Positions 2,357 to 42,660 of a DNA stretch of 64,000 bases are shown one piece after another. Made by a program: the position numbers and the translations under genes. This DNA comes from Candidatus Nanoarchaeia archaeon (GTDB taxonomy: Archaea > Nanobdellota > Nanobdellia > Woesearchaeales > JANQNC01): assembly GCA_028279745.1 (NCBI GenBank), contig JANQNC010000001.1, positions 594,154 to 658,153 on the forward strand, in the 5' to 3' direction. The notes below the pieces were generated by a model. It searched no databases. It was given only the letters and a program-made list of their open reading frames with translations, and was not told the DNA's origin. How positions within the stretch are numbered: position 1 is the first letter of the stretch; each line of letters begins with the position of its first letter.

Positions 2357-2378
2357 ATTATTGAGGAATAATAAATCC

Positions 2379-11857: not shown

Positions 11858-13626
11858 TTTTCGTATACTGTATAATCTGTGAAGTCTCTCTTTATAAATC
11901 CATAGCTTGATAATGCTTCATCTATCTTTGCAGGCGTTTCTATCTCTCTACCTTTATTTGCTATGAAAACAAATACTTTAGCTTGAGAAGATATTTCAAC
12001 CAATCCAGGCAGATCATTAGCCAAGAAAGGATTAAGATATGCTCCAGGAATAAACCTAGAGTAAGTTCTTACCTTCTTAGGTTCAGATTCCTCTTCAAGA
12101 ATGAAAGTATTAAACATAAACGAATCGGGACTGTACTGGAACTGAGGTCTTGAAGGATCAAACTTGATGTAACTTACTGAATACCTGTTTTCCTCAAGTT
12201 TGGCTTTCTTGTATTGTTTTAGTTCTGCTGCTGTGTTAAAAATAGGCATGCTATCTTTATTTTCACCTTTCATCTTTGCAATTAAAGATTTTGTCAGAGA
12301 GATTGCTGCAATCTGAGGTTTTTCGTGAATAAAGTCTCCGCTATCATAACAACATTCTAGATTAACAAGGAAAATAGGGCCTGCGGCAGTTGAAACATAT
12401 TCAAATGCATCCCTGTTAATGTCTCCTTTTGCATGTTTGATCACAGAGGTAAAACCTATGTTAAGCAATAGCAAAAATATTGTGATTAATATAAAAAATA
12501 TCATAAACAAACTCTTCAGATTAATCTTTTTACCAAGCCAAGAAAAGAAAATGTGCATTCCTTTAACCGTAAATAGGGCAACAAAAGGTATAACATGCAT
12601 TATGTATCTTAGCTGTCTGTTTGAAATCAAGAAAGTTGAAAGTATAATTATGGTTAGGACAAGGAAAACCATCTCTTTATTTTCTGATATGAAACTGTCT
12701 TTCTTCTTGAAGAACAGTATGAAAGGAATCAAAGCGAATAGTGCCAGGAAGAATGTTTCAAAAGTTAGCTGTATTGGGAAGTGGAAAAGCCAAGCAAGAC
12801 CAGAACCTCTCCCTTCAGATACCCCCTGCCAAAGAAGCTGCTTGTAAGTCTCGAACTTGATAAGACTAAACCAGACCCAAGGCAAAGTGATTATGAAAGT
12901 AATTACTAATTGAATTATGAACTCTTTTATCAGCTTAAATGGTTGGTGTTTCCTAATGAATAAGAATATTGCATATGCTAAAATGAATGCAGCTGCAAAA
13001 ATAATTGATTGATACCTTATTAGGAAGGCCAGTGCTAAGAATATCCCTCCGATGAATATTGAAATGCTTCCCAGGCTTACTTTTTTGTTGTTTATGTTGA
13101 TTGCAATCCTTTTTGAGCCTTTAATAAATGTGAAATAAAACCACCCCAAGAAGATGTAACTTACTGATGTATCAACCATAGAATCTCTGTTGAATAAGAA
13201 GATGTAAGGAATCAAACTGCATAGGATGACTGTGCAGTAAGCTAGAAGTTTATTGTTGAAAACTTTTTTTGATATAAGATAAAGGAATATTGAACCTATA
13301 ACGAAAAAGAACATCGAAGGCAGTTTTGAAGCGTATTCATTGGGGCCTGCTATAAGGAAGAAAAAAGATTGTGCTATTGCGTGTAAAGGAGGATCATGTA
13401 ATACATAAAAACCTATAGCTTGCTTTTCATTATATGCTTCCATAAAAGATTCAACACCCATAAAATTACCTTGGAGTATGTTTGAAAAATACTTATAGAA
13501 GAAAACACCTTGGTTTGCGTGTCTTGACTGATCATAACCAAGATTAGAACTTATATTAATATGAAAAAGACCCACAAAAATAACTAAAATAAAAAATAAA
13601 ACTAAAAATTCTTTTTTAATCTTCAT
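11854..13626 (-). CDS. GT-C-fold membrane glycosyltransferase-like protein
   Basis: The 590-aa product has a polytopic N-terminal half and a soluble C-terminal domain. Confidence 0.45.
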
Positions 13627-16600: not shown

Positions 16601-16895
16601 TGAAAAAGCTGGTTACTCCTTTAAGGTCAACAGAAACTTCTTCATCTTCAGACTTAGTTTCAACTTTATGTTCTGGTTTTTGTTCTTTGTGCTTTTTAGA
16701 TTTTCCTTTGAAAATTTTCTTGAAATCTATAGTGATCTCTTCCTCATCAGAATCAACTTTTTTATCTTCTTTATGCTTTTCGCTAGCTTCAGAATGCTTT
16801 TTATGCTCTTCAGTACTCAATGTATGACACCCCCAATATTTAGCTAAAATATCGACACTGCATTTATAAAGGTTATGATTGGCATATATAAACAA
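13626..16895 (-). CDS. aglB: archaeal oligosaccharyltransferase AglB (STT3) with C-terminal parvulin (PpiC) PPIase domain
   Basis: It has a polytopic TM domain, a DPYLWY motif in the first external loop, and the catalytic WWDFGHW motif (WWDYG family) at about 14974-14987. The last roughly 95 aa read HILINL...[43 protein letters not shown], a clear parvulin signature. The N-terminal 100 aa are Lys/Glu-rich. The ORF opens on a TTG. Confidence 0.85.
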
Positions 16896-29813: not shown

Positions 29814-30049
29814 ACCTATTATGTAGGTATTTTTACTTACAATTTGAGTTATTTTACTTACTAATTAAGTATATTTACTTATTTTGTAGGTTTTTTACCT
29901 ACTTAGTAGGTTTAATTACTTACATAGTAGGACAAATACTTACATGGTAAGTCTTTTTTACTTACATAGTAAGTACAATAGAAAGTTTTATAAAGGATTA
30001 AACTTACAATGTAAGTTATTATAAATAAATAACAACTTACATAGTGAGT
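29814..30049. promoter_or_regulatory. array of seven 15-bp palindromes ACYTAC-N3-GTARGT plus TTTTACTTAC half-site direct repeats (candidate operator array)
   Basis: Palindrome copies lie at 29814-29828, 29897-29911, 29918-29932, 29938-29952, 29960-29974, 30002-30016 and 30035-30049. Half-sites TTTTACTTAC lie at 29831-29840 and 29853-29862. The last two palindromes flank the TATA-like TTATAAATAAAT at 30018-30029, just upstream of the ATG at 30058. Confidence 0.55.
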
Positions 30050-30057
30050 ATTAAAAC

Positions 30058-30276
30058 ATGATGGATGAGTATGGGAACGAAATAGAGACTTCTAAAATAT
30101 TTATACCTATCTCGATCTTCGAAGATAGAAGACTTTCTGCATTAGAATCAATCGTTGAATATCTCAAAGAAAAAAGACATCTAACACTACACCAAATTGG
30201 AGTCATGCTCAACAGAGATGACAGAACAATCTGGACAACATACAACAGAGCAAAACAGAAGAGGAAGAAAAGATGA
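30058..30276 (+). CDS. small HTH DNA-binding protein (sigma-70 region 4/LuxR-like helix)
   Basis: The 72-aa product carries LTLHQIGVMLNRDDRTIWTTYNRAKQKRKK, which resembles L..EIA..LG.S..TV..R..RA. It overlaps the next gene by 4 nt. Confidence 0.5.
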   Translation: MMDEYGNEIETSKIFIPISIFEDRRLSALESIVEYLKEKRHLTLHQIGVMLNRDDRTIWTTYNRAKQKRKKR

Positions 30277-32669
30277 AACATCACATAAATAACGCAGTCG
30301 CACTAATGTCGGTCATCCTAATACTTACAAGTTCAGTCTTAGTATACAATAGTGCAGAAAACATGCTAACAGGCTATTCAATCTATGATCCTGATGCAGA
30401 AATCTGCCACCAAAATATTGATTCATGTATTGACTTAGATGGAGATGGAATGGTCGGATCCGGAAGTAATGACGAAACAATATTCTCCTGTTTAATTGAT
30501 GAAAATGGACTGGGTTGTCCTGCAAACGATGCTGAATGGATTACTTTATTTGGAAACAGCAAAGAAAACTTCACAATACTAGCAGACTTTGACAATGATG
30601 GAGGAGTTAGCCAGTTAATAGACTTCCAAAGATGTTACGTGACAATGAGAGACAGAGCGATAGATGAAGGCACTTCCTATAATGTAACATGTAACCTACC
30701 ACAAGACGCAGTTAATGATGAAGTCTGCAGGTTTGGATGTCCAGACCTAAACGGAGATGGATTTGTAGACAAGTATGACTTAGCAATCTTAACCTCAGAC
30801 TCAGTATGGAAAAATGATAGTTTCAACCAAACATATCCTATGGCAGACATGACAAATGATTCTGTTGTAGATTGGGCAGATAGAAACTGTATGAGCCTGT
30901 ACTCAAATGAGTATGCACTATGCAACTTACCAAGACACTTCGAACATGAAAATGTGTATGTGTGTCCTGACTTAGAAAATATTACAACAGACTTAGACAA
31001 TGATGGATTTGTAGGAGTGAATGATAAAGCGTTGTTTGACTCTTACTTCGATGATGGTTTGTCAGTTGTTGACTTCACAGGAGAAGGAGACATCAACTGG
31101 AAAGACAGATGGGTCTTTGATGAATATTACAACTACAAAGCAGGAAGCGAATTCAATCAAAGCGTATTGAAAGTTGTAGGATGTAATTTGTACCATGCAG
31201 CATGGCACACAGGAGGGTTGGATCAGAACATTTCATGGGGGTTCACAGGAAGTGGAGGAATGCCGCAATCGATAAACTTCACCGTATTCGACAGTCCTGC
31301 AGATAATTTCGACTCGATGGGCACAACATATGGATGGCTAACAAAAGCAAGAATAAGAATAGAAGGAAACCCTGCAAATACCAAACCAATAAATGTAACG
31401 CTAATAGAACCTTCAACAGGCAAGACATTAGCAAGAACAGAAATACCTCCATTCGGAGATACAAGATGGGCTACAGCATACTTTGCATTACCACCTTACA
31501 CAAATCCAAGACTAACCAATGGAAGTAATTACACTTTGGTCCTTGATAGTCCTGTAACTGAGTTCTATGAAATACAAGGAGGACACAACTTCCAGACCTG
31601 GATGACAACAGCACATGGAGACTTGAATGGAGATGGAATAGTTGATAGTTTAGATGATCTAATCATATCTGCAATAAACGATAATCTGCAGTTTAATGGG
31701 ACAAGTAACTGGAGTTCAGATTACGATCTTAATAACGATTCAATAATAGACAATCTAGATCTGCAAATATTTGTTGATGCTGTTGGAAGCCCACCAATAT
31801 CTTCACAATCAACAATAAGTGTAGGAAGCTATTCACAAACTTTGCTGAATGGAGGAGGAATAATTCCAAACGGAGGCTTTAGTACATCTAACGGCACGGG
31901 TTGGCCACACAAATGGGTGGATAACCAACCAGATGTGGATGTTCCAACTGACATAAGTGTTGTTTCAGGAGAACTAAACATAACTGTAAACAATAACACA
32001 GGCAGTTTTACAGGTGTAAGAAGTAAAAAACTAAAACTAAAACCAAACACAAAATACAACGTAACTGCAAAAATAAAAATCCCAACCTCGATAACACAAT
32101 TAGATGGAACTTGGGAGCTACACCGACATGCACACAATGGGTTCTGTTCAGGAACGCCCGCTTGTCACGATTACACCTTATTAGGCGGGGACTACAGCTG
32201 GGATAATAGTACTTCTAGAGGGGTATGGCACGACAAATGGTGGACAATTGAAACCGGCGAGAATGTCAAAATAGGCTATGTGTTTGTTATAACAGATGTA
32301 AATGGTGGAAACGGAACAATACTTGTTGATGATGTAAGCCTCCACGAAGTTCCAGGATACGAATGGTTCGGCGGAGCTATAAAACTAAGACAGAAGTTTA
32401 CAGCAAACACAGACTCACCAATAAAAGTTGTTCAGCTAAATCTTGCGATGGATAAAGGAAATGATGATGACATCACTGTCAAGATCCTAGATGAAACGTT
32501 CACCCCAGTAGGAAGCACAGTAATACCTGCACTACACAACAGTACACCAACAATCTACAACGCAACGTTCACTCCTGCAGTTGCAGTTACACAAGACCTA
32601 GATTATTACATTGAAGTAAGTTCGCCAGGAGAATATACAGATTACAGATGGTTCGCAAACTATGACTAA
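30273..32669 (+). CDS. surface protein with four dockerin-like Ca-binding repeat pairs and a CBM4_9-like carbohydrate-binding module
   Basis: It has a signal/anchor peptide. Paired loops occur at DLNGDGFVDKYD/DMTNDSVVDWAD, DLDNDGFVGVND/DFTGEGDINWKD and DLNGDGIVDSLDD/DYDLNNDSIIDNLD. The sequence NGGFSTSNGTGWPHKW...KPNTKYNVTAKIK matches the CBM4_9 pattern. Confidence 0.6.
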   Translation: MKHHINNAVALMSVILILTSSVLVYNSAENMLTGYSIYDPDAEICHQNIDSCIDLDGDGMVGSGSNDETIFSCLIDENGLGCPANDAEWITLFGNSKENFTILADFDNDGGVSQLIDFQRCYVTMRDRAIDEGTSYNVTCNLPQDAVNDEVCRFGCPDLNGDGFVDKYDLAILTSDSVWKNDSFNQTYPMADMTNDSVVDWADRNCMSLYSNEYALCNLPRHFEHENVYVCPDLENITTDLDNDGFVGVNDKALFDSYFDDGLSVVDFTGEGDINWKDRWVFDEYYNYKAGSEFNQSVLKVVGCNLYHAAWHTGGLDQNISWGFTGSGGMPQSINFTVFDSPADNFDSMGTTYGWLTKARIRIEGNPANTKPINVTLIEPSTGKTLARTEIPPFGDTRWATAYFALPPYTNPRLTNGSNYTLVLDSPVTEFYEIQGGHNFQTWMTTAHGDLNGDGIVDSLDDLIISAINDNLQFNGTSNWSSDYDLNNDSIIDNLDLQIFVDAVGSPPISSQSTISVGSYSQTLLNGGGIIPNGGFSTSNGTGWPHKWVDNQPDVDVPTDISVVSGELNITVNNNTGSFTGVRSKKLKLKPNTKYNVTAKIKIPTSITQLDGTWELHRHAHNGFCSGTPACHDYTLLGGDYSWDNSTSRGVWHDKWWTIETGENVKIGYVFVITDVNGGNGTILVDDVSLHEVPGYEWFGGAIKLRQKFTANTDSPIKVVQLNLAMDKGNDDDITVKILDETFTPVGSTVIPALHNSTPTIYNATFTPAVAVTQDLDYYIEVSSPGEYTDYRWFANYD

Positions 32670-35600
32670 AAAAACACAAAATAAAAACATGTTGATGCTT
32701 TTGATAGTTGCAACACTATTTGCAATAACCTCTGTAGATGCTGTCCTAAACTGTACTTCGACAGATCCTTGTGAAATTCCTTTTACAGGCGGACACCCAC
32801 CAGGATTCCCCGCGCCACTAGAAAATTTACAATGTGGAGAGACGTTCTATTATGAATTTGAACTTCCAAGAAACCATAACTGCCAAGCCACAGTAATATT
32901 TGATGTGACTGATGGAGCAAACACCTCAAATAAAATAACATTCGGAGGCGATGATTTATTACAGAACTGTCAGAGAGTAATAACTTCAGCAGACTCACAA
33001 CAATGTGAAAACGTAAACATAAATGTGCCCATGGGAATAGATGAACTATTCACAGTAACTGCAAGCAGACCTGTAGAAGGGACTGAATGTAATAGCAGTG
33101 TAGAGATAGATTACACCTTAGCATATTATGCAACCTGCGCAACTACAAAAGACGGGTGGGGAAAGAATGGAAGTTTTGTAAACACAACTGGTGGAGAATT
33201 TTATTTTGAAACACTAATAGGTGAGGGTGGTAACTTCTCAGGACTGTCTATCTTTGATGTTAACAGCGATAATGTAATAAATGATACAGACTACTATGAC
33301 ATACTTTCAAGAGATGGTGAGCGAGACGGAACATTCTGGACCCCACTTATAGACTTTAACGCACAGTTTGGGGTATATGAAGTACTGCTTGATTATACGC
33401 TGGGATTCAGAGCATACTTAGGAAAAATAGTAAATGGAGCGATGCCAATAAGGTGGTTTATAACACAGGAAAATGATGGACGATGCTCATACGATGAAGA
33501 TAACACAAGCACAGACTGCCACTATTGTAACAACGATGGGTTCTGCGCAATAAACGAATATGAATACTTAGGAGAATCATGCCAAGACTGTAACGGGACA
33601 TTCCCACTAGAACCACAGATGACAGAGTTTGATTCTTGTAGCGAAACAACAGACATGGCAGACGTATTAGATATAGAACACGCAGAAAACTTCACAATAG
33701 AAGGAGAAGAACCAGGATGTAATGACGGAAACATCATGTTCACTCAAGAAATTAATCTAACAAATTCAGGATCAGGATACATACCATTAGACATTAACAC
33801 TTCAATAGACATAATTGACAATTACATAAGCGTAAATACAATAGAAGCACCACAGTTAGAGAAAGAAGCACAGCTGACAATCTACAACAGAACATGGTGC
33901 CACCCAGGAATATTAAAGAATGGTGCAGAATGTGTTGATTGTCCAGTACAAGAGTATGGAGATAAAATAAAATCATTAAACGCAACAGGAATAGCTGATG
34001 CAGACTTACTAACTAATGTAACAGGGCAAAGCTTTACACTAGAACTACAAGCAGAAAACTACACATTTGGGAAATTAACACAAAATAATGTTTACACACA
34101 GCAACAAGTCGGACAGGATAGCCCAATAAGTGTTGAGATAGTATCGGGGGCATTAACAACCAACGCAAGAATAAATATAACAGGAATAAACAAAATAATC
34201 TACCTGCCAAAGATGAACTTGGGAGGAGGACCATCTAAAGTTTATGTTGCAGAAGATGGAAGCACTTACACAGGTGCGGCACTTACAACAATATCAAAAT
34301 CTGCAGCAGATCCAATAAAAGTAACTTCACTTAGTGCAGTGAACACTTCAGGACCTCATGGAAAATCATTCTTCTGGTTCTATGCAGGAGAAACACCTAC
34401 ACTATTCGCAACAATAAATAATGATGGGATCTTCAATGCGACAGGCACAACAACAGTTCCAACACAGGTAAAAATTGTGTATACTGCAGAGTATCCTGTT
34501 AATATCACTCTAGACGGACACCATCTATTCCTACCTTCAACATTCCCCATATCTAATGCTGCATATCCTGCAACAAACAACATAACATACAAAGAAAGAG
34601 ATTTAGTGAATGTTAAAAGAACTCCTGAAAAAGATCTAAGCATAGTAGATAAAGATCCAACTAACTTAACATTTACAGTTCCAGCATTCGGATCAGAACT
34701 AATAACAGTATACGAATCAGAAGACCTAGTCCCAAGCTACAGTAACTTCAACGGAAGCACAACAAACTTCTGTTATGCAAAAGATGAAACGACAACACGA
34801 GAACTATCAATATTTAGAGCAGTCATTGAAGATACATCAAATGCAAAACTAGGATTAGTAAGTTATGCAAACTTTACAAAACTAGACCTTAATAATGAAA
34901 TCATCATGGGTGGAAGCAACAAGACAAAAATAATCTGGATAAACGGAAGCACAAGCGATGAGTTTGAAGGAAAAGCTGCAATAATAACATTCCACAGAAT
35001 GGATATAGTGCACCCACAAATAATGGGAACTGTAACAAATGTAGTTCCAATAAGACATTACGTGCCTCCAGGAGAAACACTATCAGAATTCATATTCTAT
35101 GCGGAACTAACTGGTAGTTCACCAATAAACATAACAATAGTAGACGCAGATAATCCAACAGAATTCCTAAGTGATATAGATAATATCACAATAAGAAATG
35201 GAACACAAGAAGTAAGAATTAATGTAAGTGATCACTTCAGTGATGACGATGTTAATGTGACTGACTTAGAGTATGGGGTTGCGAACCAAACAGGAAGCAT
35301 CAAAGTAACATTTGAGAAAGCAGCAAACGTAGTGACAGCAATAATAAGACCATTAACAAGGTTCTTCAATCCGTTCAGTTTCCAGTTCTTCGTTTATGAA
35401 CCTGGAGTAATTGATGGAGAGTCTGCATTCTCTAATTTCCTATTTGGAAACATACTGCCAGACAGACCACCAATACAAACACAAACAATACTAGACATAG
35501 TGTTCAATGAAGATGAAAACGGAACAATAGACTTATCTGACTACTTCGAAGATCCTGACAACCATCCATTACATTATACTTGGACACCGATAGATGCTGG

Positions 35601-38600
35601 CGGAAATATAACAATACACAAACAAGGAATGGCACAAAGCTTATGGTGGAACATAACTAATGCAACTTACACAGGGAATAACAGCATGACATTCCTACAA
35701 GAAGTTATTGCATTAGTTCAAACAAATACAACCGAACTACTTGCATCTCCAGGAACTTACGGATACATAGTGGCAGCAGGTTATGCAGACCAGACAGCTG
35801 AAGAAGGAACAGACCTACTTAGAATAAACTTCTGGAACACAACAGGAAATGGAATGTCATTCCCAGAAGGAAACATAAGCATAACATATGACAACGGAAA
35901 AGATCTGAAGATATACATACCTGAAGTTACCTATACTGATAGGAATAACTTCTCACTATTCGTATCAAAAGACGGATCAACATACTATGATGAAGGACTA
36001 ACACAGATTGCAAAAGTCTCACCTAACCCTATAGTTGTTCCTAGCTTAGTAATAGAACCAGATAGTGATTGGCACGGCAAGAGAACAATAGTCTTCATAG
36101 CAAACGACACAATACACAAGAAAACAAGCAACAACGTAGACATAATTGTTCATAACCTAAACGATGCACCAAGGAAACACAAAGACATTGATGATATAGT
36201 AATGCTAGAGGGAACTGTTGAGTTTGTTGTAAATGTAACACCCGACTACTTATTCGATATAGACATACCTACAGACACCGAGTTTGAAGCAGATGATGAA
36301 CTAACATTAACATATTCAAAACAGGGCGGCGGTGATGCTGAGTTTATCAACTTAACATTCAGCAATAACGGAGTTTATAGCGTTACAGAAGATAAACCAG
36401 TTAATATAACAGTTAAAGCACTGGATTTCCCATACTGGAACGGGTATGAAGCACTAACAGTAAAAGCAACAGACTCATACGGTAAGAGTGTTGAGACAAA
36501 CTTCACAGTATACATAATAGAAGTACCAACAGATCTTAACAGAACAATACTTCCAGCATACATCCCAATGGTTGAAGATGAAACTTATCCATTTGAACTG
36601 AACAACAACTGGTTTGTGGATGTGGAAGGAGATGCAACCTACAGATACTTCGGATTAAATTCAACAAACATAACAATAGAACTGAATATCGATAGTGGAA
36701 ATGGAACAATCAGAGCAGATCCAGACTGGTTTGGTGTAGCTGTAGTTAATTTCTCAGCATCAGACGCGACAAGCAACGTATCAGATATGTTTGTGATAAA
36801 TGTAACACCAGTAAATGACGCGCCAAGATTATATGGAGACATAGAAGTAAAACCATGGCCAAAAGATGAAAGTTATCTGGTTAATTTATCAGACCACTTC
36901 TACGAAGCATACGGAGAAGACACAAACAGTCTAGTGTTCTCAGACATAGACATAATACCAACACTAAGCACAACCTATCATGAACTAATCGCAAACAGCT
37001 ATACTAGTGAGACTGCAAACATGACCCCTGACACAGGATGGTACGGATCAGGATGGATAACCTTCTGCGCAGACGATGGTCAGTATCAGACGTGCAGCAA
37101 CATAGTAAGACTAAACATAACATCTGACAAACCGCCACAGTTAATATCACCATTCAATAGTCCGGAAATATGGCCAGAAGATAATGTTAACTACATCAAC
37201 CTAGAAGAACACTTCTGGGATGAAGAATTAGGAAGTGAGTTAGATTTCACACCATCACTAATAGGACCATTTGATGGATTCAACATAACACCATACGGGG
37301 AGTTGATTAACAGTAATGTATTACTTAACTTAAGCAACGTAAGAAAAGCAGCATACAACTTAACACTGGGAGGAGGATTCACATTCATAGCAGCAGACAA
37401 CAGTGGAAGATACTTAACAACCGCATATGGAACAAACGGAACACAGACACCAATCTTCCTATTAAGCCCACTACAACACAATGCAAAACCAATCAAGATA
37501 TACAAGACAAGCATGAAAGATCCAAGCTTTGAACTACCTGAAGAGACTTATAATTTAACAGGAAACGCAAACATTAGTGTAAGTTACACAGCTTATGAAG
37601 GAGATAAGTCAAGGAGAGTAGAAAGAAACATCGGAACAGGAATAACAGGAATAACAACAATAGATCCTATACCTGTAGTCAGTAACCAACAGTACACAGT
37701 ATCAGCAGTAATAACAACAGAGAACATAAGAGATCCTGGTGAGTCTGTAACAGTGGCAATAGAATGTGATGGCATAGCAACTGAAGTAGCAATACCAGGA
37801 ATGACAACACAAAAACAAGGACTGACAGATTGGGAGGATTGGGACACAATACAAAGAGTATACAACGTAGGATCAAGCACAGAATGTAGACCAAAATTAA
37901 TAATGGGATCTGGAACACTAGGTACTTTCTGGGCAGATCTATTCAACTTCGATAAGTACTACCCTACCAACACACCTGAAAGAGAGATGTCAATAACAGA
38001 ATCAAGCTTAGAATCAGCAACAGGAGGAGTAGAAGTATTCTTACCTGAACTAAACAACACACTACAAGCAATATACTTAGGAATAGACGGAACAACATAC
38101 TATGATGAAAACATGACAGTAGTTGCAAGAAGATCACCAAACATGGCATTAGTGCCAGACGAACACTGGTACGGCAACAGAACAATGGCAATAATTGCAA
38201 CAGACGGAATGTTTAACAGAACATCAAACAATATAAAATTAAGAATAGAACCAGTAAATGACATTCCAATATTCAAAGGACCAATCCAAAACATACCAAT
38301 GAATGAATCTGAAAGCAGAGCTGTAATACTAAGTAACTACTTCGAGGATGTTGAAGACAAAGTAGATCTAGATTACACACTTATCACAAACACAGAACCA
38401 GGAAACATATTTGTTACCATAAATAAAACTGAAAACGAAACAAACGCAACAATAACGACTGCACCAGGATGGGTTGGGTTTGGAGAACTACAATTTAAAG
38501 CAACAGACTCAAAAGGAGCGTCCAACGAGAGCAATGTGTTCATAGTATATGTTGGCGAGTATTCAGACAAAGTATTCGCAATACCTGGAGCAAATACAAC

Positions 38601-41600
38601 ATACTTCCTGGTAGAAGACCAAGGACCAAAACAGTTCCCAGTCAAAAACAAATACTTCAATGACACAGATGATGATGCAGTTTATTGGTACACAATAGAT
38701 GAAACCAAGTTTAATATGACTGCATGGGACGAAGACGCAGGATTCGGATTCATCAAACCATTACCAGACTATTGTAACTTTGTAAGCTGCACAAACACAA
38801 ACGGATATGACAATATAACATTACATGCACAAGACCCAATATCTGGAATAGTAAACACAACAGTGCAAATGGTTGTGGAATGTGTACCGGACATACCAAG
38901 AATAGAAGACGACATATACATAACCTTCCCAGAAGATACAAACTATTACACACTAATCGAATATGGATATGACCCGGATAAGATATGGGGTTGTGATAAT
39001 GTAACTGTAGAGTATCCAAGCTACGCAAATGTAAGAGTGAATCTATCAACATTCGATGGATTCAACATGAGCTTCCAGCCAGAACCTAACTTCAACGGAA
39101 TAGAGATAATCAATGTTACATTAACAGATGCTTATGGACTACAGAATTCAACAATCGTAACAATAAACGTTACACCAATAGATGATCCAACACAACTTAA
39201 CTGGACACCTTATGGATATACAATACCTGAAGATACTAACTTAACAGAAAACGTAAGCGACAAGATATGGGATGTTGATAACGTATTAACATTAAATGCT
39301 ACATACGATCCGTCAGTAATTGCATCAATAATATTTGAGCCGACCATGACCGTAGTCCCACTGATACAGAATTTCCTACAACAGATGATAGTGACACCAG
39401 TAATGGATTGGTTTGGCTTAACATTCTTCGATGTATATGCTACAAACGAATCAGGAGATGTTGTTGCAAATGTTTCATTGTATCTAAATGTAACACCAGT
39501 CAACGATGCACCAGTATGTGACGAGCAGATTGCAGATCAGGTAATGTGCGAAGATACCTTGCTTGACATACTGATAAATGGAAACATAATAGATGTAGAT
39601 AATGAAACATTAAATTACTTTGCACAAAATTTGACTGCAGGAATTGATAATGTGACATTCTTCAACGGGTGGAGAGATGAAGAAACATTATCAGAAAACA
39701 TACACTCCGTTACAGAATTTAATGATGTGCTTTATGCAGTAGGAGATGATGGATACATTGCAAGATACTATGATAAAGGTAATTGCACTGCAGAGTATGG
39801 ATGGGAGCAGGTAGAAAATACCTCAACTGCCAATGATTTACGAGCGGTCCATGGATACAACGGAATGTTGTTCACAGCAGGAGACAATGGAGAAGTTGAT
39901 GTGTATAATGGAACATGGAACAATGTAAGTAAATTTACAAGTTTAGATCTTCACGCACTGGAAACATACGATAATAAGCTATGGGTTGGAGGAGATGAAG
40001 GAGAGATATGGACATATAATGGAAACAACTGGACCAATATGACTAACTTATTCATCAACAGCCACGTAAGACATCTGAAAGCATTTGACGAAATACTGTA
40101 TGTGGGACAGTCATCAGGAACACACGGAGAAAAAATAGATTATTACAACACGAGCGAATGGAGAAACATAGTTAATGAACCATTAAACGGAAGCATAAAG
40201 GCAATGGAAGAATATGACGGAAAACTATTCGTTTCAGATGATAATGGAAGTATCGCGCACTTAGTTGAAGAAACATGGACATACCTAACAGGAACAAATG
40301 TCAATGACATAGAAAGTATGACTGTCTTTGATGGAATGTTATATACCGGTGGCGCTAGTGGAGAGATCGATAGATTTGATGGCACAGTATGGGAAAACGT
40401 GACAGGAACAACAACAGGGTTCACAACAGAGATGATACCATATAAACACTCCAAATATAACAATAATAGAGATTACCTATTCACATTCTCAAACGGAGAT
40501 GTAGATTCATATACAGGAGGATTCACAGCAGTAATCAATAGTTCAGACAACTGGTTTGGAAATGCAAATGCAACAATAGGCGCGACAGATGGTGAAATGA
40601 ACGGAACATGCGACCCAATCAATATAGAAGTGACACCAGTTGAAGATAATCCAACATTTGTCTCAATGTGGCCATGGATCAACACAGTAAGCATACTGAC
40701 AGAATCATATGATGTTGATAACTTGTACTCATACCTACAGAACTTAACATTAGATGTGTATAATGCAACCATCGAGAACAATGGAAGCTTATTATGTAGT
40801 GGTGTAAATGTTGAAAATGTAAGTTGTGAGTTCCCACAACCTGAAGATAACATGACACACACCGTGTTCGGATACTTATACGACAGCAACGGAAATGAGG
40901 CAGATAACAATCCACTAAATGCAAGCTATGAGTTTAATCCACCTACTGTTAACACAAATGCAGATGAAAGATTCTGGTTCATAGGGGATAATGGAACAAT
41001 CACAATAGGAACAACAGATGATACCGGATTATTGAATATTCAGTACTGCGTAGCAGATTATTATGAAGATGACTGCACAATAAATGAAACTGTTGCAGCG
41101 AGTGGAACTGTGAACTCACTAATACTAAGTGTAGAATGTGCACCTACAGATATAATGTGCAGAACAAAAGTCAAGTTCACAGCACAAGACATCTTCGGAA
41201 ACTATGCAGAAGAAGGAAGTGGAAGAGTCAACATGATATATGGCTCAGAAATCTATAATACCACCGTCAATGAAACAAGAAACGGAGAAAAAGTAGTTGT
41301 GTTAAATGGATCAGTAGTAAACAACTCAAACATAATCAGAAGTCTAGTAAGAAACGTAACATACAACGAAGTGACAATAATAGACAGTGAAGACAAGAAT
41401 AGTGTAACAAGTAATGCTATGATCTTTGTTGATCCATCAATACTAGAAAATAACACATACATAGGACCTAACACTTTGATCAATGCAATAATCAAACACA
41501 GCACAATAGAAGATAGCGATGTAAGAGACTCAGAAGGATGCCACATGATAATAAATGAAAGCACCATAATAAATGGAGCGATAATAAATGGAACTGTGAC

Positions 41601-42660
41601 CTGGAACGGAACAGTCTATAGTGCAGGTGAGCTAACAATAAAAGATGAAAATACAAATTGTGTATTCGATCAGTTCGAGCAAATACAAACACCACCTTCC
41701 GGAGGCGGAGGCGGCGGCGGAAGCTGCACACCTAACTGGGAATGCACAGAGTGGACAGAATGCGGATATTATAGCGGCATAAGGACAAGGACTTGCATAG
41801 ACACAAGAAATTGCAACAGAGACAGACCTGTAGAAAGAGAAACTTGCAGAGGAATACCTGCATGCTCAGACGGATTATGGAACAATGGAGAAGAAGGAGT
41901 AGATTGCGGAGGCAAATGCACGCCTTGTTCAGGTGAAGAAGAAATAACCGGCAGACCAATCATAGAAAGACCTGTAACTCCAATTGAAGAACAACCAGAC
42001 ACAATAGAGCCTCCAGTAGAGGAAGAAACAAAAGTTCCTTGGTGGTTCTTACTACTATTACTATTGTTCATAGTTGCAGTAATAGGATTCATTGCAGCAG
42101 ACATGAGAAAGAGACAAACAGTAATCCCAACAGTTAAAGAATCAGTTACACCAGTAGCAGTAGCTGAAAAACCAAAACAAGGAGTGTTGATGGTTGAGGT
42201 AGAAGAGTTAGAAAAATCAATACAGTCAGTGTTAGGCAGCGGATTTACTGTAGAAGATGTCAAACAAGCACTAATGAGAAAAGGATGGGACGAACAAACA
42301 GTTAACTTTGCATTGAAAGAAGCAGTTATCAAGAAGTATAAACTGCATGAACCTCACGGTGAATTAGAGAAATTAGAAAAATCAATATCATCCGTAGTTG
42401 GACACGGATATACTTGCCAAGACATCAGGAAGTCATTAGTCAAGAAAGGCTGGCCAAGAGATGTGGTAGATGAGGCATTACATGAAACAGTAGTAAGAAA
42501 TGAGAAACTACATGAAGTACATAATGATGTTGAACAACTGGTTAACTCTATCAAAGCAGTAAGGTGTCATGGATATGCTAAGGACGCAATCAAGAAAAAG
42601 CTATTAGATAAAGGATGGCCTCTTGCTAAAGTGAATGAAGCTATGAAAAAAGTTCCTTAA
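32662..42660 (+). CDS. giant (3332 aa) type-I membrane surface protein: cadherin-like repeats, 7-bladed beta-propeller, Cys-rich module, TM helix, cytoplasmic triple repeat
   Basis: A single uninterrupted ORF with signal peptide MTKKTQNKNMLMLLIVATLFAITSVDA. It has recurrent VTPVNDAP, NDIPIF and VEDNPTF motifs (cadherin-like DxNDNAPxF). It has blades of the form hL(Y/F)xxGDxGEIxxYNGTxW (about 39.7-40.5 kb). A Cys-rich module lies at about 41.70-41.94 kb. A TM helix WWFLLLLLLFIVAVIGFIAA lies at about 42.04-42.10 kb. N-x-S/T sequons are extremely frequent. Confidence 0.8.
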   Translation: MTKKTQNKNMLMLLIVATLFAITSVDAVLNCTSTDPCEIPFTGGHPPGFPAPLENLQCGETFYYEFELPRNHNCQATVIFDVTDGANTSNKITFGGDDLLQNCQRVITSADSQQCENVNINVPMGIDELFTVTASRPVEGTECNSSVEIDYTLAYYATCATTKDGWGKNGSFVNTTGGEFYFETLIGEGGNFSGLSIFDVNSDNVINDTDYYDILSRDGERDGTFWTPLIDFNAQFGVYEVLLDYTLGFRAYLGKIVNGAMPIRWFITQENDGRCSYDEDNTSTDCHYCNNDGFCAINEYEYLGESCQDCNGTFPLEPQMTEFDSCSETTDMADVLDIEHAENFTIEGEEPGCNDGNIMFTQEINLTNSGSGYIPLDINTSIDIIDNYISVNTIEAPQLEKEAQLTIYNRTWCHPGILKNGAECVDCPVQEYGDKIKSLNATGIADADLLTNVTGQSFTLELQAENYTFGKLTQNNVYTQQQVGQDSPISVEIVSGALTTNARINITGINKIIYLPKMNLGGGPSKVYVAEDGSTYTGAALTTISKSAADPIKVTSLSAVNTSGPHGKSFFWFYAGETPTLFATINNDGIFNATGTTTVPTQVKIVYTAEYPVNITLDGHHLFLPSTFPISNAAYPATNNITYKERDLVNVKRTPEKDLSIVDKDPTNLTFTVPAFGSELITVYESEDLVPSYSNFNGSTTNFCYAKDETTTRELSIFRAVIEDTSNAKLGLVSYANFTKLDLNNEIIMGGSNKTKIIWINGSTSDEFEGKAAIITFHRMDIVHPQIMGTVTNVVPIRHYVPPGETLSEFIFYAELTGSSPINITIVDADNPTEFLSDIDNITIRNGTQEVRINVSDHFSDDDVNVTDLEYGVANQTGSIKVTFEKAANVVTAIIRPLTRFFNPFSFQFFVYEPGVIDGESAFSNFLFGNILPDRPPIQTQTILDIVFNEDENGTIDLSDYFEDPDNHPLHYTWTPIDAGGNITIHKQGMAQSLWWNITNATYTGNNSMTFLQEVIALVQTNTTELLASPGTYGYIVAAGYADQTAEEGTDLLRINFWNTTGNGMSFPEGNISITYDNGKDLKIYIPEVTYTDRNNFSLFVSKDGSTYYDEGLTQIAKVSPNPIVVPSLVIEPDSDWHGKRTIVFIANDTIHKKTSNNVDIIVHNLNDAPRKHKDIDDIVMLEGTVEFVVNVTPDYLFDIDIPTDTEFEADDELTLTYSKQGGGDAEFINLTFSNNGVYSVTEDKPVNITVKALDFPYWNGYEALTVKATDSYGKSVETNFTVYIIEVPTDLNRTILPAYIPMVEDETYPFELNNNWFVDVEGDATYRYFGLNSTNITIELNIDSGNGTIRADPDWFGVAVVNFSASDATSNVSDMFVINVTPVNDAPRLYGDIEVKPWPKDESYLVNLSDHFYEAYGEDTNSLVFSDIDIIPTLSTTYHELIANSYTSETANMTPDTGWYGSGWITFCADDGQYQTCSNIVRLNITSDKPPQLISPFNSPEIWPEDNVNYINLEEHFWDEELGSELDFTPSLIGPFDGFNITPYGELINSNVLLNLSNVRKAAYNLTLGGGFTFIAADNSGRYLTTAYGTNGTQTPIFLLSPLQHNAKPIKIYKTSMKDPSFELPEETYNLTGNANISVSYTAYEGDKSRRVERNIGTGITGITTIDPIPVVSNQQYTVSAVITTENIRDPGESVTVAIECDGIATEVAIPGMTTQKQGLTDWEDWDTIQRVYNVGSSTECRPKLIMGSGTLGTFWADLFNFDKYYPTNTPEREMSITESSLESATGGVEVFLPELNNTLQAIYLGIDGTTYYDENMTVVARRSPNMALVPDEHWYGNRTMAIIATDGMFNRTSNNIKLRIEPVNDIPIFKGPIQNIPMNESESRAVILSNYFEDVEDKVDLDYTLITNTEPGNIFVTINKTENETNATITTAPGWVGFGELQFKATDSKGASNESNVFIVYVGEYSDKVFAIPGANTTYFLVEDQGPKQFPVKNKYFNDTDDDAVYWYTIDETKFNMTAWDEDAGFGFIKPLPDYCNFVSCTNTNGYDNITLHAQDPISGIVNTTVQMVVECVPDIPRIEDDIYITFPEDTNYYTLIEYGYDPDKIWGCDNVTVEYPSYANVRVNLSTFDGFNMSFQPEPNFNGIEIINVTLTDAYGLQNSTIVTINVTPIDDPTQLNWTPYGYTIPEDTNLTENVSDKIWDVDNVLTLNATYDPSVIASIIFEPTMTVVPLIQNFLQQMIVTPVMDWFGLTFFDVYATNESGDVVANVSLYLNVTPVNDAPVCDEQIADQVMCEDTLLDILINGNIIDVDNETLNYFAQNLTAGIDNVTFFNGWRDEETLSENIHSVTEFNDVLYAVGDDGYIARYYDKGNCTAEYGWEQVENTSTANDLRAVHGYNGMLFTAGDNGEVDVYNGTWNNVSKFTSLDLHALETYDNKLWVGGDEGEIWTYNGNNWTNMTNLFINSHVRHLKAFDEILYVGQSSGTHGEKIDYYNTSEWRNIVNEPLNGSIKAMEEYDGKLFVSDDNGSIAHLVEETWTYLTGTNVNDIESMTVFDGMLYTGGASGEIDRFDGTVWENVTGTTTGFTTEMIPYKHSKYNNNRDYLFTFSNGDVDSYTGGFTAVINSSDNWFGNANATIGATDGEMNGTCDPINIEVTPVEDNPTFVSMWPWINTVSILTESYDVDNLYSYLQNLTLDVYNATIENNGSLLCSGVNVENVSCEFPQPEDNMTHTVFGYLYDSNGNEADNNPLNASYEFNPPTVNTNADERFWFIGDNGTITIGTTDDTGLLNIQYCVADYYEDDCTINETVAASGTVNSLILSVECAPTDIMCRTKVKFTAQDIFGNYAEEGSGRVNMIYGSEIYNTTVNETRNGEKVVVLNGSVVNNSNIIRSLVRNVTYNEVTIIDSEDKNSVTSNAMIFVDPSILENNTYIGPNTLINAIIKHSTIEDSDVRDSEGCHMIINESTIINGAIINGTVTWNGTVYSAGELTIKDENTNCVFDQFEQIQTPPSGGGGGGGSCTPNWECTEWTECGYYSGIRTRTCIDTRNCNRDRPVERETCRGIPACSDGLWNNGEEGVDCGGKCTPCSGEEEITGRPIIERPVTPIEEQPDTIEPPVEEETKVPWWFLLLLLLFIVAVIGFIAADMRKRQTVIPTVKESVTPVAVAEKPKQGVLMVEVEELEKSIQSVLGSGFTVEDVKQALMRKGWDEQTVNFALKEAVIKKYKLHEPHGELEKLEKSISSVVGHGYTCQDIRKSLVKKGWPRDVVDEALHETVVRNEKLHEVHNDVEQLVNSIKAVRCHGYAKDAIKKKLLDKGWPLAKVNEAMKKVP

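What the first reader, a model, noticed from the sequence alone, without database searches (positions are those of the whole stretch)
32662..42660. 3332-aa single-ORF surface protein with mosaic architecture
The architecture is signal peptide, roughly 1100 aa of unassigned beta-rich sequence, at least six cadherin-like modules ending in V(T/N)P(V/I)(N/D)D(A/I/N)P motifs (36.15, 36.8, 38.25, 39.17, 39.5 and 40.63 kb), a 7-bladed propeller (39.7-40.5 kb), a Gly7 linker plus a 10-Cys module (41.70-41.94 kb), a Pro/Glu-rich stalk, a single TM helix and a 180-aa cytoplasmic tail. A 10-kb uninterrupted ORF is improbable by chance in 33% GC DNA, where stop codons are frequent. The gene is therefore under strong selection to remain intact.
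Basis: partly seen in the sequence, partly recalled or inferred. Interest (0 to 1): 0.7.

Follow-up and report, generated by a model that had tools for sequence, protein, structure and literature searches.

The report
Giant glycosylated archaeal surface adhesin
This is a real 3332-residue gene for a sugar-coated, membrane-anchored, modular surface protein of a tiny symbiotic-type (DPANN, Woesearchaeota-like) archaeon. It is most likely an attachment protein, and its most conserved part is an unexpected RecX-like tail inside the cell.

Summary
The ORF 32662-42660 (+) is real: 3332 codons with no stop (chance about 1e-106). Intact syntenic orthologs of 1606, 2646 and 2954 aa occur in other metagenomes. 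The host is a Woesearchaeota-like DPANN archaeon.

Corrections:
- There are about 11 Ig/cadherin-like "tandem-95" modules, not 6.
- Three of them are split by nested inserts, one being the propeller.
- The 10-Cys block is two modules: a 6-Cys thrombospondin-repeat-like unit and a 4-Cys unit.
- The 184-aa tail is three RecX-type three-helix repeats.

The ectodomain carries 122 N-glycosylation sequons against 44 expected, and the tail carries none. The tail is the best-conserved part (72-87% against 43-56% identity). It belongs to a family of C-terminal tails, those named being Woesearchaeal, on about 167 otherwise unrelated protein clusters, mostly membrane-anchored.

The gene ends a translationally coupled operon (72-aa HTH-like protein, 798-aa dockerin-like glycoprotein, giant). 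The operon sits behind a conserved array of 9 palindromes.

Best reading: a regulated, Ca2+-stiffened, glycosylated adhesin whose tail binds a conserved cytoplasmic partner. The N-terminal 920 aa remain unassigned. I class it as a new variant of a known kind (giant DPANN surface proteins), of moderate interest.

The parts
29814..30049 (.). Array of 9 (perhaps 10) palindromes ACTTAC-N3-GTAAGT, mostly 21 bp apart. It flanks two TATA-like A/T boxes and ends 8 nt before the 72-aa gene. Putative operator array of the operon.
   Evidence: 10 matches in the window against 3.5 expected, 9 of them clustered at 29835-30049. Searches show the sequence. The same array sits upstream of the orthologous 72-aa gene in L001 (8 sites), L003 (10 sites) and L086 (8 sites). 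A tenth site at 29814-29830 was read by eye. Operator function is inferred.
30058..30276 (+). 72-aa basic protein with a weak HTH signature; first gene of the operon. Its stop overlaps the next start (ATGA).
   Evidence: One search gives coordinates and the overlap. The orthologs in L001 and L003 are 89% identical to each other. The Pfam HTH_11 hit is weak only (E 0.018). DNA binding is inferred.
30273..32669 (+). 798-aa secreted or anchored partner glycoprotein. It has four dockerin-like Ca2+ loops and a sequon excess, and overlaps the giant's start by 8 nt.
   Evidence: Pfam Dockerin_1 scores 23.1 bits against a cut-off of 22.9; DUF4082 is weak. Loops lie at aa 158, 240, 450 and 485. There are 23 sequons against 10 expected, z 4.6. 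Orthologs occur in L003 (45% identity), L086, and split in two in L001.
32662..42660 (+). The giant gene, 3332 aa.
32662..32742 (+). Signal peptide (aa 1-27, ending ...SVDA|V).
   Evidence: Hydropathy. The N-terminus aligns from residue 1 with the orthologs. The cleavage site is inferred.
32743..33951 (+). Cys-rich distal head (aa 28-430, 19 Cys). It has an invariant aromatic core FWTPLIDFNAQFGVYE..LDYTLGF..Y.GKIVNGAMP and one dockerin-like loop (aa 199). The fold is unassigned.
   Evidence: No Pfam or PDB sequence hit. The AlphaFold model failed (pLDDT 38). The core aa 172-432 recurs inside another Woesearchaeal giant, P0109.
33952..35505 (+). Unassigned beta-rich region (aa 431-948). It contains one strong copy (aa 508-555) and one weak copy of a roughly 57-aa 'IYLP...DGSTYYD..LT.IAK..P' unit.
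   Evidence: (mostly strands at low confidence).
35506..39519 (+). Ten Ig/cadherin-like 'tandem-95' modules. They lie at aa 949-1017+1068-1172 (split), 1183-1290, 1304-1390, 1402-1494, 1800-1871 (C-terminal half), 1881-1970, 1984-2081, 2090-2179 and 2189-2286.
   Evidence: NCBIfam tandem-95 repeat scores 86 bits against a cut-off of 90, in 5 stretches. Pfam Big_9 scores 32.4 and 24.3 bits on segments against a cut-off of 23.6; Cadherin_4 and Cadherin_5 fall below cut-off. An iterated local HMM gives per-module i-E values of 1e-8 to 1e-21.
37144..38058 (+). 305-aa non-Ig insert (aa 1495-1799) nested before a half Ig module. It ends in a 'DGSTYYD' unit. Fold unassigned; possibly a jelly-roll or sugar-binding domain, which is a guess only.
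   Evidence: No Pfam hit even at E 10. Only a non-significant PDB hit to a xylanase, E 0.64. Present in P0002 and absent from P0001.
39667..40506 (+). Beta-propeller-like repeat domain (aa 2336-2615), with 6 clear and 1 degenerate blade of about 40 aa. It is nested inside the eleventh Ig-like module.
   Evidence: Blade register. Weak hits to several propeller families (WD40_like 23 bits, DUF6242, WDR55), all below cut-off. Flanking half-modules. Present in P0001 and absent from P0002 and P0009.
40507..40659 (+). C-terminal half of the eleventh Ig-like module, ending VTPVEDNP.
40660..41691 (+). Membrane-proximal region. It comprises about two further beta domains (aa 2667-2860) and an Asn/Ser/Ile-rich short-repeat segment (aa 2861-3010), beta-helix-like by homology to P0005.
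   Evidence: Aligns with the Nanoarchaeota beta-helix protein P0005. No Pfam hit of its own. The fold is inferred.
41701..41721 (+). Gly7 hinge (aa 3014-3020).
   Evidence: It is conserved as a run of 6-10 Gly in orthologs and in P0005.
41725..41847 (+). 6-Cys module (C3022-C3062) with the pattern W.C..W..C...G...R.C; thrombospondin-type-1-repeat-like.
   Evidence: AlphaFold pLDDT about 90 with three strands. Foldseek local matches converge on TSR-fold proteins: MIC2 8j64_B (prob 0.90), pleiotrophin, midkine, and complement C6/C8/C9. However E is 1.2 or above and there is no Pfam TSP_1 hit.
41863..41928 (+). 4-Cys module C.DG..N..E.G.DCGG.C..C (C3068-C3089).
   Evidence: The motif recurs, often in tandem, in 20 of 150 tail-family proteins. 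It is modelled at low confidence.
41938..42033 (+). Pro/Glu-rich stalk (aa 3093-3124).
   Evidence: Disordered in the model.
42034..42105 (+). Single transmembrane helix (aa 3125-3148), acidic outside and RKR inside.
42106..42657 (+). Cytoplasmic tail. A linker is followed by three RecX-type three-helix repeats (aa 3181-3230, 3231-3285, 3286-3332; nt 42202-42351, 42352-42516, 42517-42657).
13626..16895 (-). Context: AglB/STT3 oligosaccharyltransferase fused to a PPIase, inside a glycosylation gene cluster. It is the likely enzyme that glycosylates the giant's 122 sequons.
   Evidence: The link to the giant is inferred.

Best explanation
The gene encodes a giant type-I membrane glycoprotein of a Woesearchaeota-like DPANN archaeon. 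It most likely acts as a long-reach adhesin.

Shown:
- It is a real, conserved gene.
- The N-terminal 3100 aa are predicted to lie outside the cell. They are extremely acidic and packed with N-glycosylation sequons.
- The ectodomain holds 11 Ig/cadherin-like modules, with three other domains nested in module loops.
- A Gly hinge, two small disulfide modules and a Pro/Glu stalk lead to one TM helix.
- The 184-aa cytoplasmic tail is three RecX-type three-helix repeats and is the most conserved part.
- The gene is the last, translationally coupled member of a three-gene operon preceded by a conserved palindrome array.

Inferred:
- The Ig modules form a Ca2+-stiffened rod, tens of nanometres long. 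The rod presents the Cys-rich head, the propeller and the 305-aa insert to ligands on a host cell or surface.
- The co-transcribed dockerin-like glycoprotein works with the rod.
- The tail holds the protein to a conserved cytoplasmic partner. The same tail serves this purpose on many unrelated Woesearchaeal surface proteins.
- The 72-aa protein binds the palindromes and switches this very costly operon on and off.
For: Gene reality. Five orthologous loci share the same operon and synteny.

Organism: RadA, RadB, AglB and S2 are present. RadA is at best 72% identical to Nanoarchaeota/Woesearchaeota genomes.

Exposure and glycosylation:
- 122 sequons against 44 +/- 6 expected, none after aa 3000.
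- Only this protein and its operon partner are sequon-enriched among 42 window ORFs.
- The ectodomain has net charge -292.

Extender modules: NCBIfam tandem-95 at 86 bits, Pfam Big_9 above cut-off on segments, and 11 modules by iterated HMM.

Adhesin-like evolution: whole modules are gained and lost between orthologs of 1606-3332 aa.

Tail:
-.
- The tail family has 167 representative clusters.
- Among the best 150 hits: median 3 repeats; 127 end at the C-terminus; 88 of the 98 proteins of at least 400 aa have a TM helix upstream of the first repeat, typically 40-100 aa before it.
- Named members are Candidatus Woesearchaeota.

Operon and operators.

Precedent: nanohaloarchaeal SPEARE proteins share the topology, have their most conserved part in the cytoplasm, and are proposed to mediate host attachment (PMC6642349).
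Against: - No ligand, host or expression data exist.
- The distal 920 aa, the 305-aa insert and the propeller have no confident fold or family. The AlphaFold model of the N-terminus failed, and there are no Pfam or PDB hits.
- The cadherin-like assignments sit at or just below curated cut-offs.
- Ca2+ binding is inferred from acidic motifs only.
- The tail's partner is unknown.
- A tandem three-helix repeat is a simple fold. It is also found in phage Ltp and in designed proteins.
- The palindrome-regulator link is untested.
- A structural (envelope) role would fit most of the same data.
Confidence: 0.6

Rival explanations
1. It is the cell's main envelope (S-layer-type or sheath) glycoprotein. 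On this view it is a structural coat anchored by its C-terminal TM helix, not an adhesin.
For: The features match archaeal S-layer glycoproteins: signal peptide, heavy sequon load, very acidic ectodomain and a C-terminal TM anchor. The gene sits next to a large glycosylation cluster and in a conserved housekeeping neighbourhood of radB, S2 and radA.
Against: - No S-layer family was hit in Pfam or NCBIfam.
- Length varies two-fold between close relatives by module gain and loss. That is unusual for a lattice-forming protein.
- The same tail and Cys cassette sits on many different ectodomains within the lineage, including a subtilase, beta-helix proteins and EGF-like proteins. It is therefore an anchoring device rather than part of a lattice.
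Confidence: 0.15
2. It is a cellulosome-like scaffold for capturing or degrading polysaccharide. On this view the giant carries sugar-binding modules and docks the dockerin-bearing 798-aa partner.
For: The upstream partner has four dockerin-type loops and a marginal Pfam Dockerin_1 hit. The partner has weak CBM-like and DUF4082 hits. The 305-aa insert has a non-significant similarity to a xylanase region.
Against: No cohesin, CBM or glycoside-hydrolase family was detected in the giant or its neighbours at any threshold tried. The partner gene is split and shortened in L001 while the giant stays intact.
Confidence: 0.1
3. The RecX-like tail really works like RecX. On this view it binds RadA filaments or DNA at the membrane, coupling cell contact to recombination or DNA uptake.
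For: - RecX is likewise three tandem three-helix bundles of about 50 aa each (PMC2500204).
- The gene lies between radB and radA in all loci that include those positions.
- In P0005 an SSB-like OB-fold gene overlaps the 3' end.
Against: - NCBIfam RecX equivalog scores are 13-18 bits against cut-offs of 146-240.
- Repeat number in the family runs from 1 to 13, on many unrelated surface proteins. This argues for a generic role.
- The radA/radB linkage is one inherited synteny, not independent evidence. P0109 has no such neighbours.
- Two of the three repeats carry no net positive charge, unlike RecX's basic face.
Confidence: 0.06
4. It is not a functional gene, but a chance ORF, an assembly chimera or a decaying pseudogene.
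For: None beyond the general caution that metagenome assemblies can collapse repeats. Read coverage could not be examined.
Against: - Chance is about 1e-106.
- Codon-position bias is present.
- Intact orthologs occur in four other assemblies from different samples.
- No near-identical internal DNA repeats exist.
Confidence: 0.01

Closest known systems
SPEARE proteins of Nanohaloarchaeota (Hamm et al. 2019, PMC6642349)
   Same: Both are giant DPANN proteins of 3-8.5 kaa. Nearly all the length is extracellular, with adhesion-type domains. There is one TM helix near the C-terminus, and the cytoplasmic portion is the most conserved region. A host-attachment role is proposed.
   Different: No serine-protease, laminin-G or type III restriction-enzyme domain was detected here. 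The cytoplasmic part is a RecX-type repeat tail instead. No sequence similarity was found, so this is not a member.
Bacterial 'tandem-95 repeat' / cadherin-like (Cadherin_4, Cadherin_5, Big_9) giant adhesins
   Same: Both have runs of roughly 95-aa acidic Ig-like modules ending in ..VNDAP-type motifs. Non-Ig domains, presumed to bind ligands, are embedded in the rod. The best non-orthologous database hits are such proteins.
   Different: The host is archaeal, and the orientation is N-terminus distal with a C-terminal TM anchor plus cytoplasmic tail. The protein is heavily N-glycosylated. Scores sit at or just under family cut-offs. Three modules are split by nested domains.
RecX (bacterial RecA regulator; 3C1D, 3E3V, 3DFG)
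   Same: The tail is three tandem three-helix units of about 50 aa. RecX is the best natural match by sequence profile and by fold.
   Different: Here the unit is the cytoplasmic tail of a membrane protein in an archaeon, and copy number in its family is 1-13. RecX equivalog models are far below cut-off. Function on RadA is untested.
Thrombospondin type-1 repeat adhesins (e.g. apicomplexan MIC2/TRAP)
   Same: A small 6-Cys, Trp/Arg-containing three-stranded module lies close to the membrane, followed by a TM helix and a conserved tail. Foldseek local matches converge on TSR-fold proteins.
   Different: E-values are not significant and there is no Pfam TSP_1 hit. The Cys spacing differs. This is a resemblance of fold and layout only.
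Archaeal S-layer glycoproteins with a C-terminal membrane anchor
   Same: Both have a signal peptide, an acidic N-glycosylated ectodomain and a C-terminal TM anchor.
   Different: No S-layer family signature was found. This protein is much larger, modular and variable in length between relatives, and has a structured cytoplasmic domain.

Membership tests
Tandem-95 / bacterial cadherin-like Ig repeat proteins | Multiple roughly 95-aa repeat modules matching NF012211 or Pfam Cadherin_4/5 or Big_9 above curated cut-offs | tested here: inconclusive
   NF012211 scores 86 bits against a cut-off of 90, in 5 stretches. Big_9 scores 32.4 and 24.3 bits on 400-aa segments against a cut-off of 23.6. Cadherin_4 and Cadherin_5 fall below cut-off. 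A local iterated HMM finds 11 modules.
Tandem-95 / bacterial cadherin-like Ig repeat proteins | Ca2+ binding at inter-module acidic motifs | not testable with these tools
   Only acidic motifs (F.D.D.D..NDAP) and a net charge of -292 are seen.
RecX | Tandem three-helix repeats of about 50 aa each | tested here: met
RecX | Full-length match to RecX equivalog models; a small soluble protein | tested here: not met
   NCBIfam RecX models score 13-18 bits against cut-offs of 146-240. The domain is the tail of a 3332-aa membrane protein.
RecX | Binds and destabilises RecA-family filaments through a conserved basic face | not testable with these tools
   Net charge of the repeats is -1, -1 and +5.
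SPEARE proteins | Serine protease, laminin-G/adhesion and cytoplasmic type III restriction-endonuclease domains | tested here: not met
   None of these families appears in Pfam or NCBIfam scans of the whole protein or of segments.
SPEARE proteins | Giant ectodomain, C-terminal TM helix, cytoplasmic part the most conserved region | tested here: met
Archaeal S-layer protein families | Match to a known S-layer domain family | tested here: not met
   No such hit.
Archaeal S-layer protein families | Forms the regular, abundant envelope lattice | not testable with these tools
   Needs proteomics or tomography.
Thrombospondin type-1 repeat | Pfam TSP_1 signature (W..W..C, C.G.G...R.R.C, 6 Cys) | tested here: not met
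   No TSP_1 hit at E up to 1 on the segment. The motif here is W.C..W..C......G...R.C.
Thrombospondin type-1 repeat | Three-stranded, disulfide-stapled elongated fold | tested here: inconclusive
   The model is confident, with three strands. Local Foldseek matches to MIC2, pleiotrophin, midkine and C6/C8/C9 TSRs have prob 0.75-0.90, but E is 1.2 or above.
Seven-bladed beta-propeller | Seven roughly 40-aa four-stranded blades closing a ring | tested here: inconclusive
   Six clear and one degenerate sequence repeat. Weak hits to five propeller families all fall below cut-off. No structure model was made of this part.
Cohesin-dockerin (cellulosome-like) system | Dockerin on one partner and cohesin on the scaffold | tested here: not met
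   Dockerin_1 is marginal in the upstream protein, 23.1 against 22.9. No cohesin hit occurs in the giant.
Diversity-generating retroelement target | Template/variable repeat pair near the gene | tested here: not met
   No repeat of any part of the gene above 78% identity occurs anywhere in the window. A reverse-transcriptase gene was not specifically searched for.

The most novel reading that the evidence does not exclude
The RecX-type 'KGW' three-helix repeats may be an undescribed cytoplasmic coupling module, so far named only in Woesearchaeota. On this reading they tether many different type-I surface proteins, this giant cadherin-like adhesin among them, to one conserved intracellular partner. 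That partner could be a scaffold, or RadA/DNA. DPANN cells would then have an outside-in adhesion-receptor architecture: cadherin-like repeats, then a TSR-like module, then a TM helix, then a conserved tail. This is analogous to eukaryotic cadherins or apicomplexan TRAP/MIC2. It would be expressed from an operon switched by a small HTH protein acting on a roughly 10-site operator array.
Probability: 0.2. Interest if true: 0.75.

Novelty: new variant of a known kind. Interest (0 to 1): 0.45.

Why it matters
DPANN archaea are thought to live attached to other cells, but for Woesearchaeota neither hosts nor attachment molecules are known.

This locus supplies several concrete, testable parts:
- A candidate adhesin with defined modules.
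- A conserved operon partner.
- A candidate regulator with its operator array.
- A cytoplasmic tail module that marks a whole set of Woesearchaeal surface proteins. The tail profile could be used to catalogue the surface proteome of these uncultured organisms.

The two-fold length variation between orthologs shows module shuffling at a probable host interface. If the tail has a specific partner, that would reveal how an archaeal cell links surface contacts to its interior.

Tried and rejected
1. AlphaFold on aa 28-948 with the 3-ortholog alignment gave mean pLDDT 38. It was unusable, so no fold search was run on it.

2. The search for homologous proteins with two sub-queries returned nothing, although orthologs exist (aa 3010-3332; aa 28-470). 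I treat this as a limit of the word index, not as absence.

3. Scans of GTDB genomes and JGI metagenome contigs with N-terminal patterns found no relative. The tail patterns found one further partial ortholog, L085.

4. PDB sequence searches gave nothing significant. The queries were the whole protein, the Cys modules, the N-terminal profile, the 305-aa insert and the propeller.

5. Foldseek against the PDB with the C-terminal model gave no hit at E 0.001 or better. Only the recurrence of TSR-fold proteins among small local hits is used, and only as a lead.

6. The afdb50 library was unavailable.

7. My idea that the 305-aa insert is a CBM4_9-like jelly roll rests on remembered motif patterns. 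No tool supported it, so it is kept only as a guess.

8. A cohesin in the giant was not found.

9. A DGR or assembly-collapse signature was not found.

10. Literature searches for RecX+DPANN, Woesearchaeota+cadherin+surface and DPANN+cadherin returned nothing relevant.
Full report
**1. Observation**

The ORF listing and translate show one ATG-started ORF, 32662-42660 (+), of 3332 codons. With the window's composition a stop is expected every 14 codons or so. The chance of 3332 stop-free codons is about 1e-106. The five other frames of the same DNA hold 82-382 stops, and their longest open stretch is 194 codons.

- A hydrophobic signal-peptide core at aa 10-27.
- Six ..V(T/N/E)P(V/I)(N/D/E)D.P motifs, at nt 36142, 36796, 38239, about 39170, 39484 and 40624.
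- A blade-repeat region at aa 2343-2612.
- Gly7 at aa 3014-3020, followed by exactly ten Cys at aa 3022-3089.
- A Pro/Glu stalk.
- One TM helix at aa 3126-3148.
- A 184-aa tail.

There are no near-identical DNA repeats in the gene or window; the best is 72-78% over 41-74 nt. Repeat collapse is therefore unlikely, though coverage could not be checked.

**2. Organism and neighbourhood**

The neighbours include RadA, RadB, ribosomal protein S2, and an AglB/STT3 oligosaccharyltransferase fused to a PPIase. There is also a long run of glycosyltransferases and a flippase. The organism is therefore an archaeon.

RadA is at best 72% identical to genomes labelled Nanoarchaeota, Woesearchaeota or Nanoarchaeia among GTDB species representatives. 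I conclude it is a Woesearchaeota-like DPANN archaeon with no close sequenced representative.

**3. Orthologs and selection**

A search of 5.8 billion proteins with the whole protein found only two close relatives: P0001 (2646 aa, 50% identity) and P0002 (2954 aa, 46%). A profile search later added P0009 (1606 aa). A contig scan added a partial copy, L085.

All lie in the same place: glycosyltransferases, two unknown genes, radB, a 72-aa gene, a dockerin-like gene, the giant, then S2 on the other strand, with radA, where the contig extends that far, further on. They are orthologs and all are intact.

The orthologs differ by whole blocks:
- P0001 lacks aa 1253-1936 of the window protein.
- P0002 lacks aa 2080-2162 and 2207-2630, including the propeller, and has an extra Cys-rich stretch near the N-terminus.
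- P0009 lacks most of aa 430-760 and the propeller.

The window copy is the longest known. Identity to P0001 and P0002 is 43-56% along the ectodomain. In the three tail repeats it is 72-87% to P0001 and 55-76% to P0002, and much of the second repeat is invariant.

**4. Anatomy of the ectodomain**

Pfam and NCBIfam give only weak or borderline hits:
- NCBIfam tandem-95 repeat: 86 bits against a cut-off of 90, in five stretches.
- Big_9: above cut-off on two 400-aa segments.
- Cadherin_4 and Cadherin_5: below cut-off.

An HMM seeded on one module was iterated over the orthologs and bacterial tandem-95 proteins. It finds eleven modules. Three are split:
- aa 949-1017 and 1068-1172 flank a roughly 50-110-aa insert.
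- A half module at aa 1800-1871 follows a 305-aa non-Ig region (aa 1495-1799).
- The last module is interrupted by the blade-repeat domain, and its C-terminal half ends at aa 2666.

A roughly 57-aa unit ('..I(Y/F)(L/I)P..(6-12)..(Y/F)(V/L)..DG(S/T)TYYD..LT.IA(K/R)..P') occurs three times strongly and once weakly. It closes two of the inserts; I cannot assign it.

The blade region has six clear repeats and one degenerate repeat of about 40 aa. It hits five different propeller families, all under threshold. Seven blades is reasonable but unproven.

The first 920 aa have no Pfam or PDB match, and the AlphaFold model was useless (pLDDT 38). This stretch comprises a 19-Cys head with an invariant aromatic core and a beta-rich region.

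The ectodomain has net charge -292 (14.5% Asp+Glu, 5% Lys+Arg). It carries 122 N-x-S/T sequons against 44 +/- 6 after shuffling, with none after aa 3000. Among 42 ORFs of the window, only this protein (z 11) and its upstream partner (z 4.6) are enriched.

**5. The membrane-proximal cassette and the tail**

Aa 2861-3283 align with P0005, a Nanoarchaeota beta-helix protein that is otherwise unrelated. The shared cassette consists of:
- an Asn/Ser/Ile-rich short-repeat segment,
- a Gly run,
- a 6-Cys module,
- a 4-Cys module C.DG..N..E.G.DCGG.C..C,
- a Pro/Glu stalk,
- a TM helix,
- repeats of the form ..L..YI...L..G.....I...L...GW....V.

A profile of the tail was searched against 1.84 billion cluster representatives. 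It found 167 proteins at E 0.001 or better, but only three at 1e-30 or better. Among the best 150:
- The median is three repeats and the maximum thirteen.
- In 127 the repeats end within 30 aa of the C-terminus.
- Of the 98 proteins of at least 400 aa, 88 have a hydrophobic helix upstream of the first repeat, typically 40-100 aa before it.

Their ectodomains are unrelated: a subtilase, beta-helix proteins, laminin-G/DUF2341, EGF-like Cys repeats. The few that carry names are Candidatus Woesearchaeota. The tail is thus a reusable cytoplasmic module of type-I surface proteins; the members that carry names place it in this lineage.

The nature of the tail rests on four lines of evidence:
- Pfam RecX_HTH1 scores 30.2 bits (cut-off 26) on the segment, and 48 bits in P0008.
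- A 68-sequence profile of single repeats was searched against PDB sequences. The best natural hits are RecX 3e3v (1.6e-4), 3d5l and 3c1d, ahead of UBA domains. Designed three-helix miniproteins score higher.
- AlphaFold with a 30-sequence alignment models aa 3019-3332 at mean pLDDT 78. The model has a TM helix and three three-helix units at 82-96.

The 6-Cys module is modelled at pLDDT about 90 as three strands. Its local Foldseek matches converge on TSR-fold proteins: MIC2, pleiotrophin, midkine and complement C6/C8/C9, with prob up to 0.90. E-values are 1.2 or above and Pfam TSP_1 is not hit. This is a lead only.

**6. Operon and control region**

The giant's ATG lies 8 nt inside the end of a 798-aa gene (30273-32669). 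That gene's ATG in turn overlaps the stop of a 72-aa gene (30058-30276).

The 798-aa protein has a signal-anchor-like N-terminus and four dockerin-type D.N.D..(I/V)D..D loops. It has a marginal Dockerin_1 hit and a sequon excess. It is conserved in L003 and L086 and split in L001.

The 72-aa protein is basic, has a weak HTH_11 hit, and its L001 and L003 orthologs are 89% identical to each other.

Immediately upstream, at 29835-30049, lie nine copies of the palindrome ACTTAC-N3-GTAAGT, mostly 21 bp apart. By eye there is a tenth at 29814. The last two bracket a TATA-like box, and the array ends 8 nt before the ATG. Only 3.5 matches are expected in the entire 64-kb window. Equivalent arrays of 8-10 sites stand at the same place in L001, L003 and L086.

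I infer that the small protein binds them and controls the operon; this is not tested. Another Woesearchaeal giant with the same C-terminal cassette (P0109) also has a small DNA-binding-type gene overlapping its start.

**7. Mechanism proposed**

Shown: gene reality, topology signals, sequon excess, Ig-module count, nested inserts, modular indels, the tail's fold type and conservation, operon coupling, and the conserved palindromes.

Inferred:
- Sec export and AglB glycosylation.
- An acidic Ig-module rod of tens of nanometres, stiffened by Ca2+.
- The distal head, propeller and insert acting as ligand binders for a host cell or surface.
- The Gly hinge and Pro/Glu stalk giving flexibility at the membrane.
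- The tail binding a conserved cytoplasmic partner that retains or organises such proteins.
- The 72-aa protein acting as a switch.

I give this 0.6.

The rivals are:
- An envelope-lattice protein (0.15).
- A cellulosome-like scaffold that uses the dockerin partner (0.1).
- A true RecX-like action on RadA or DNA (0.06). The position between radB and radA is suggestive but is a single inherited synteny.
- A non-gene (0.01).

**8. Comparison with known systems**

The nearest described analogue is the SPEARE protein family of Nanohaloarchaeota. The two share size, topology, adhesion-type ectodomain, the cytoplasmic part as most conserved region, and a proposed attachment role (PMC6642349). None of SPEARE's defining domains is present here, so this protein works like one but is not one.

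Its extender modules relate it to bacterial tandem-95 or cadherin-like adhesins, at borderline scores.

I found no paper linking RecX-like repeats to DPANN surface proteins. The searchable library is limited, so this is weak evidence of novelty.

**9. Verdict**

This is a genuine and well-observed feature. Its general kind, a giant modular surface protein of an episymbiont-type archaeon, is expected, so a specialist would not be greatly surprised.

The new elements are the RecX-type tail family, the TSR-like and 4-Cys membrane-proximal cassette, domains nested inside Ig modules, two-fold modular length variation among orthologs, and the conserved operator array with its small regulator. I class it as a new variant of a known kind, with interest 0.45.

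Noticed in passing
window 29814-30276: Nine or ten ACTTAC-N3-GTAAGT palindromes at roughly 21-bp spacing lie directly upstream of a conserved 72-aa HTH-like gene that heads the operon. The array is conserved in L001, L003 and L086. This looks like a multi-operator control region.
   Followed up: yes
window 13626-16895 (-): AglB/STT3 oligosaccharyltransferase carries a C-terminal parvulin-type PPIase domain (1089 aa). It lies inside a glycosylation gene cluster spanning roughly 2446-27828. The fusion might couple glycosylation with folding of exported proteins.
   Followed up: no
window 53407-55425 (-) and 56392-57363 (-): A 672-aa Peptidase_M23 protein and a weak Amidase_3-like protein: peptidoglycan-hydrolase-type genes in an archaeon. 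The M23 gene is syntenic in L001 and L002. This may hint at a bacterial host or prey.
   Followed up: no
window 42669-43178 (+): A 169-aa SET-domain (lysine methyltransferase-like) gene starts 9 nt after the giant's stop on the same strand. It is absent at this position in L001, L002 and L086.
   Followed up: partly
window 44373-44906 (-): A 177-aa ORF with a Dictyostelium-type Cys-rich repeat (Dicty_CTDC, 30 bits). It is another small Cys-repeat protein near the giant gene.
   Followed up: no
giant aa 508-555, 617-655, 1071-1127, 1786-1832 (nt about 34183-34326, 34510-34626, 35872-36042, 38017-38157): A recurrent roughly 57-aa unit '..IYLP....VYV..DGSTYYD..LT.IAK..P' closes the nested inserts. 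It is also found in the orthologs and in P0130. It matches no family.
   Followed up: partly
L087 7708-18377 (P0109, NCBI GCA_964414985.1): Another 3458-aa giant that shares the head core (aa 172-432) and the C-terminal cassette. It has FG-GAP and PKD domains. A 98-aa MazE/AbrB-like gene overlaps its start, so the pairing of a small DNA-binding gene with a giant surface gene recurs.
   Followed up: partly
L001 3669-5577: In L001 and L002 the dockerin-like partner gene is split into 264-aa and 309-aa ORFs and lacks the middle part, while the giant stays intact.
   Followed up: partly
window 25055-27828 (-): Two adjacent unknown proteins (444 and 483 aa, no Pfam hit) keep their place beside radB in L086 (445 and 483 aa), and partly in L001. 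They are conserved lineage-specific genes of unknown role.
   Followed up: no
window 2242-2358 (-): A lone 5S rRNA gene. No tRNA genes occur in the 64-kb window.
   Followed up: no
tools: the search for homologous proteins returned no hit for two sub-fragments of the protein, although the full-length query had found 46-50% identical orthologs. The afdb50 fold library was unavailable. Negative results from these calls should not be read as absence.
   Followed up: no
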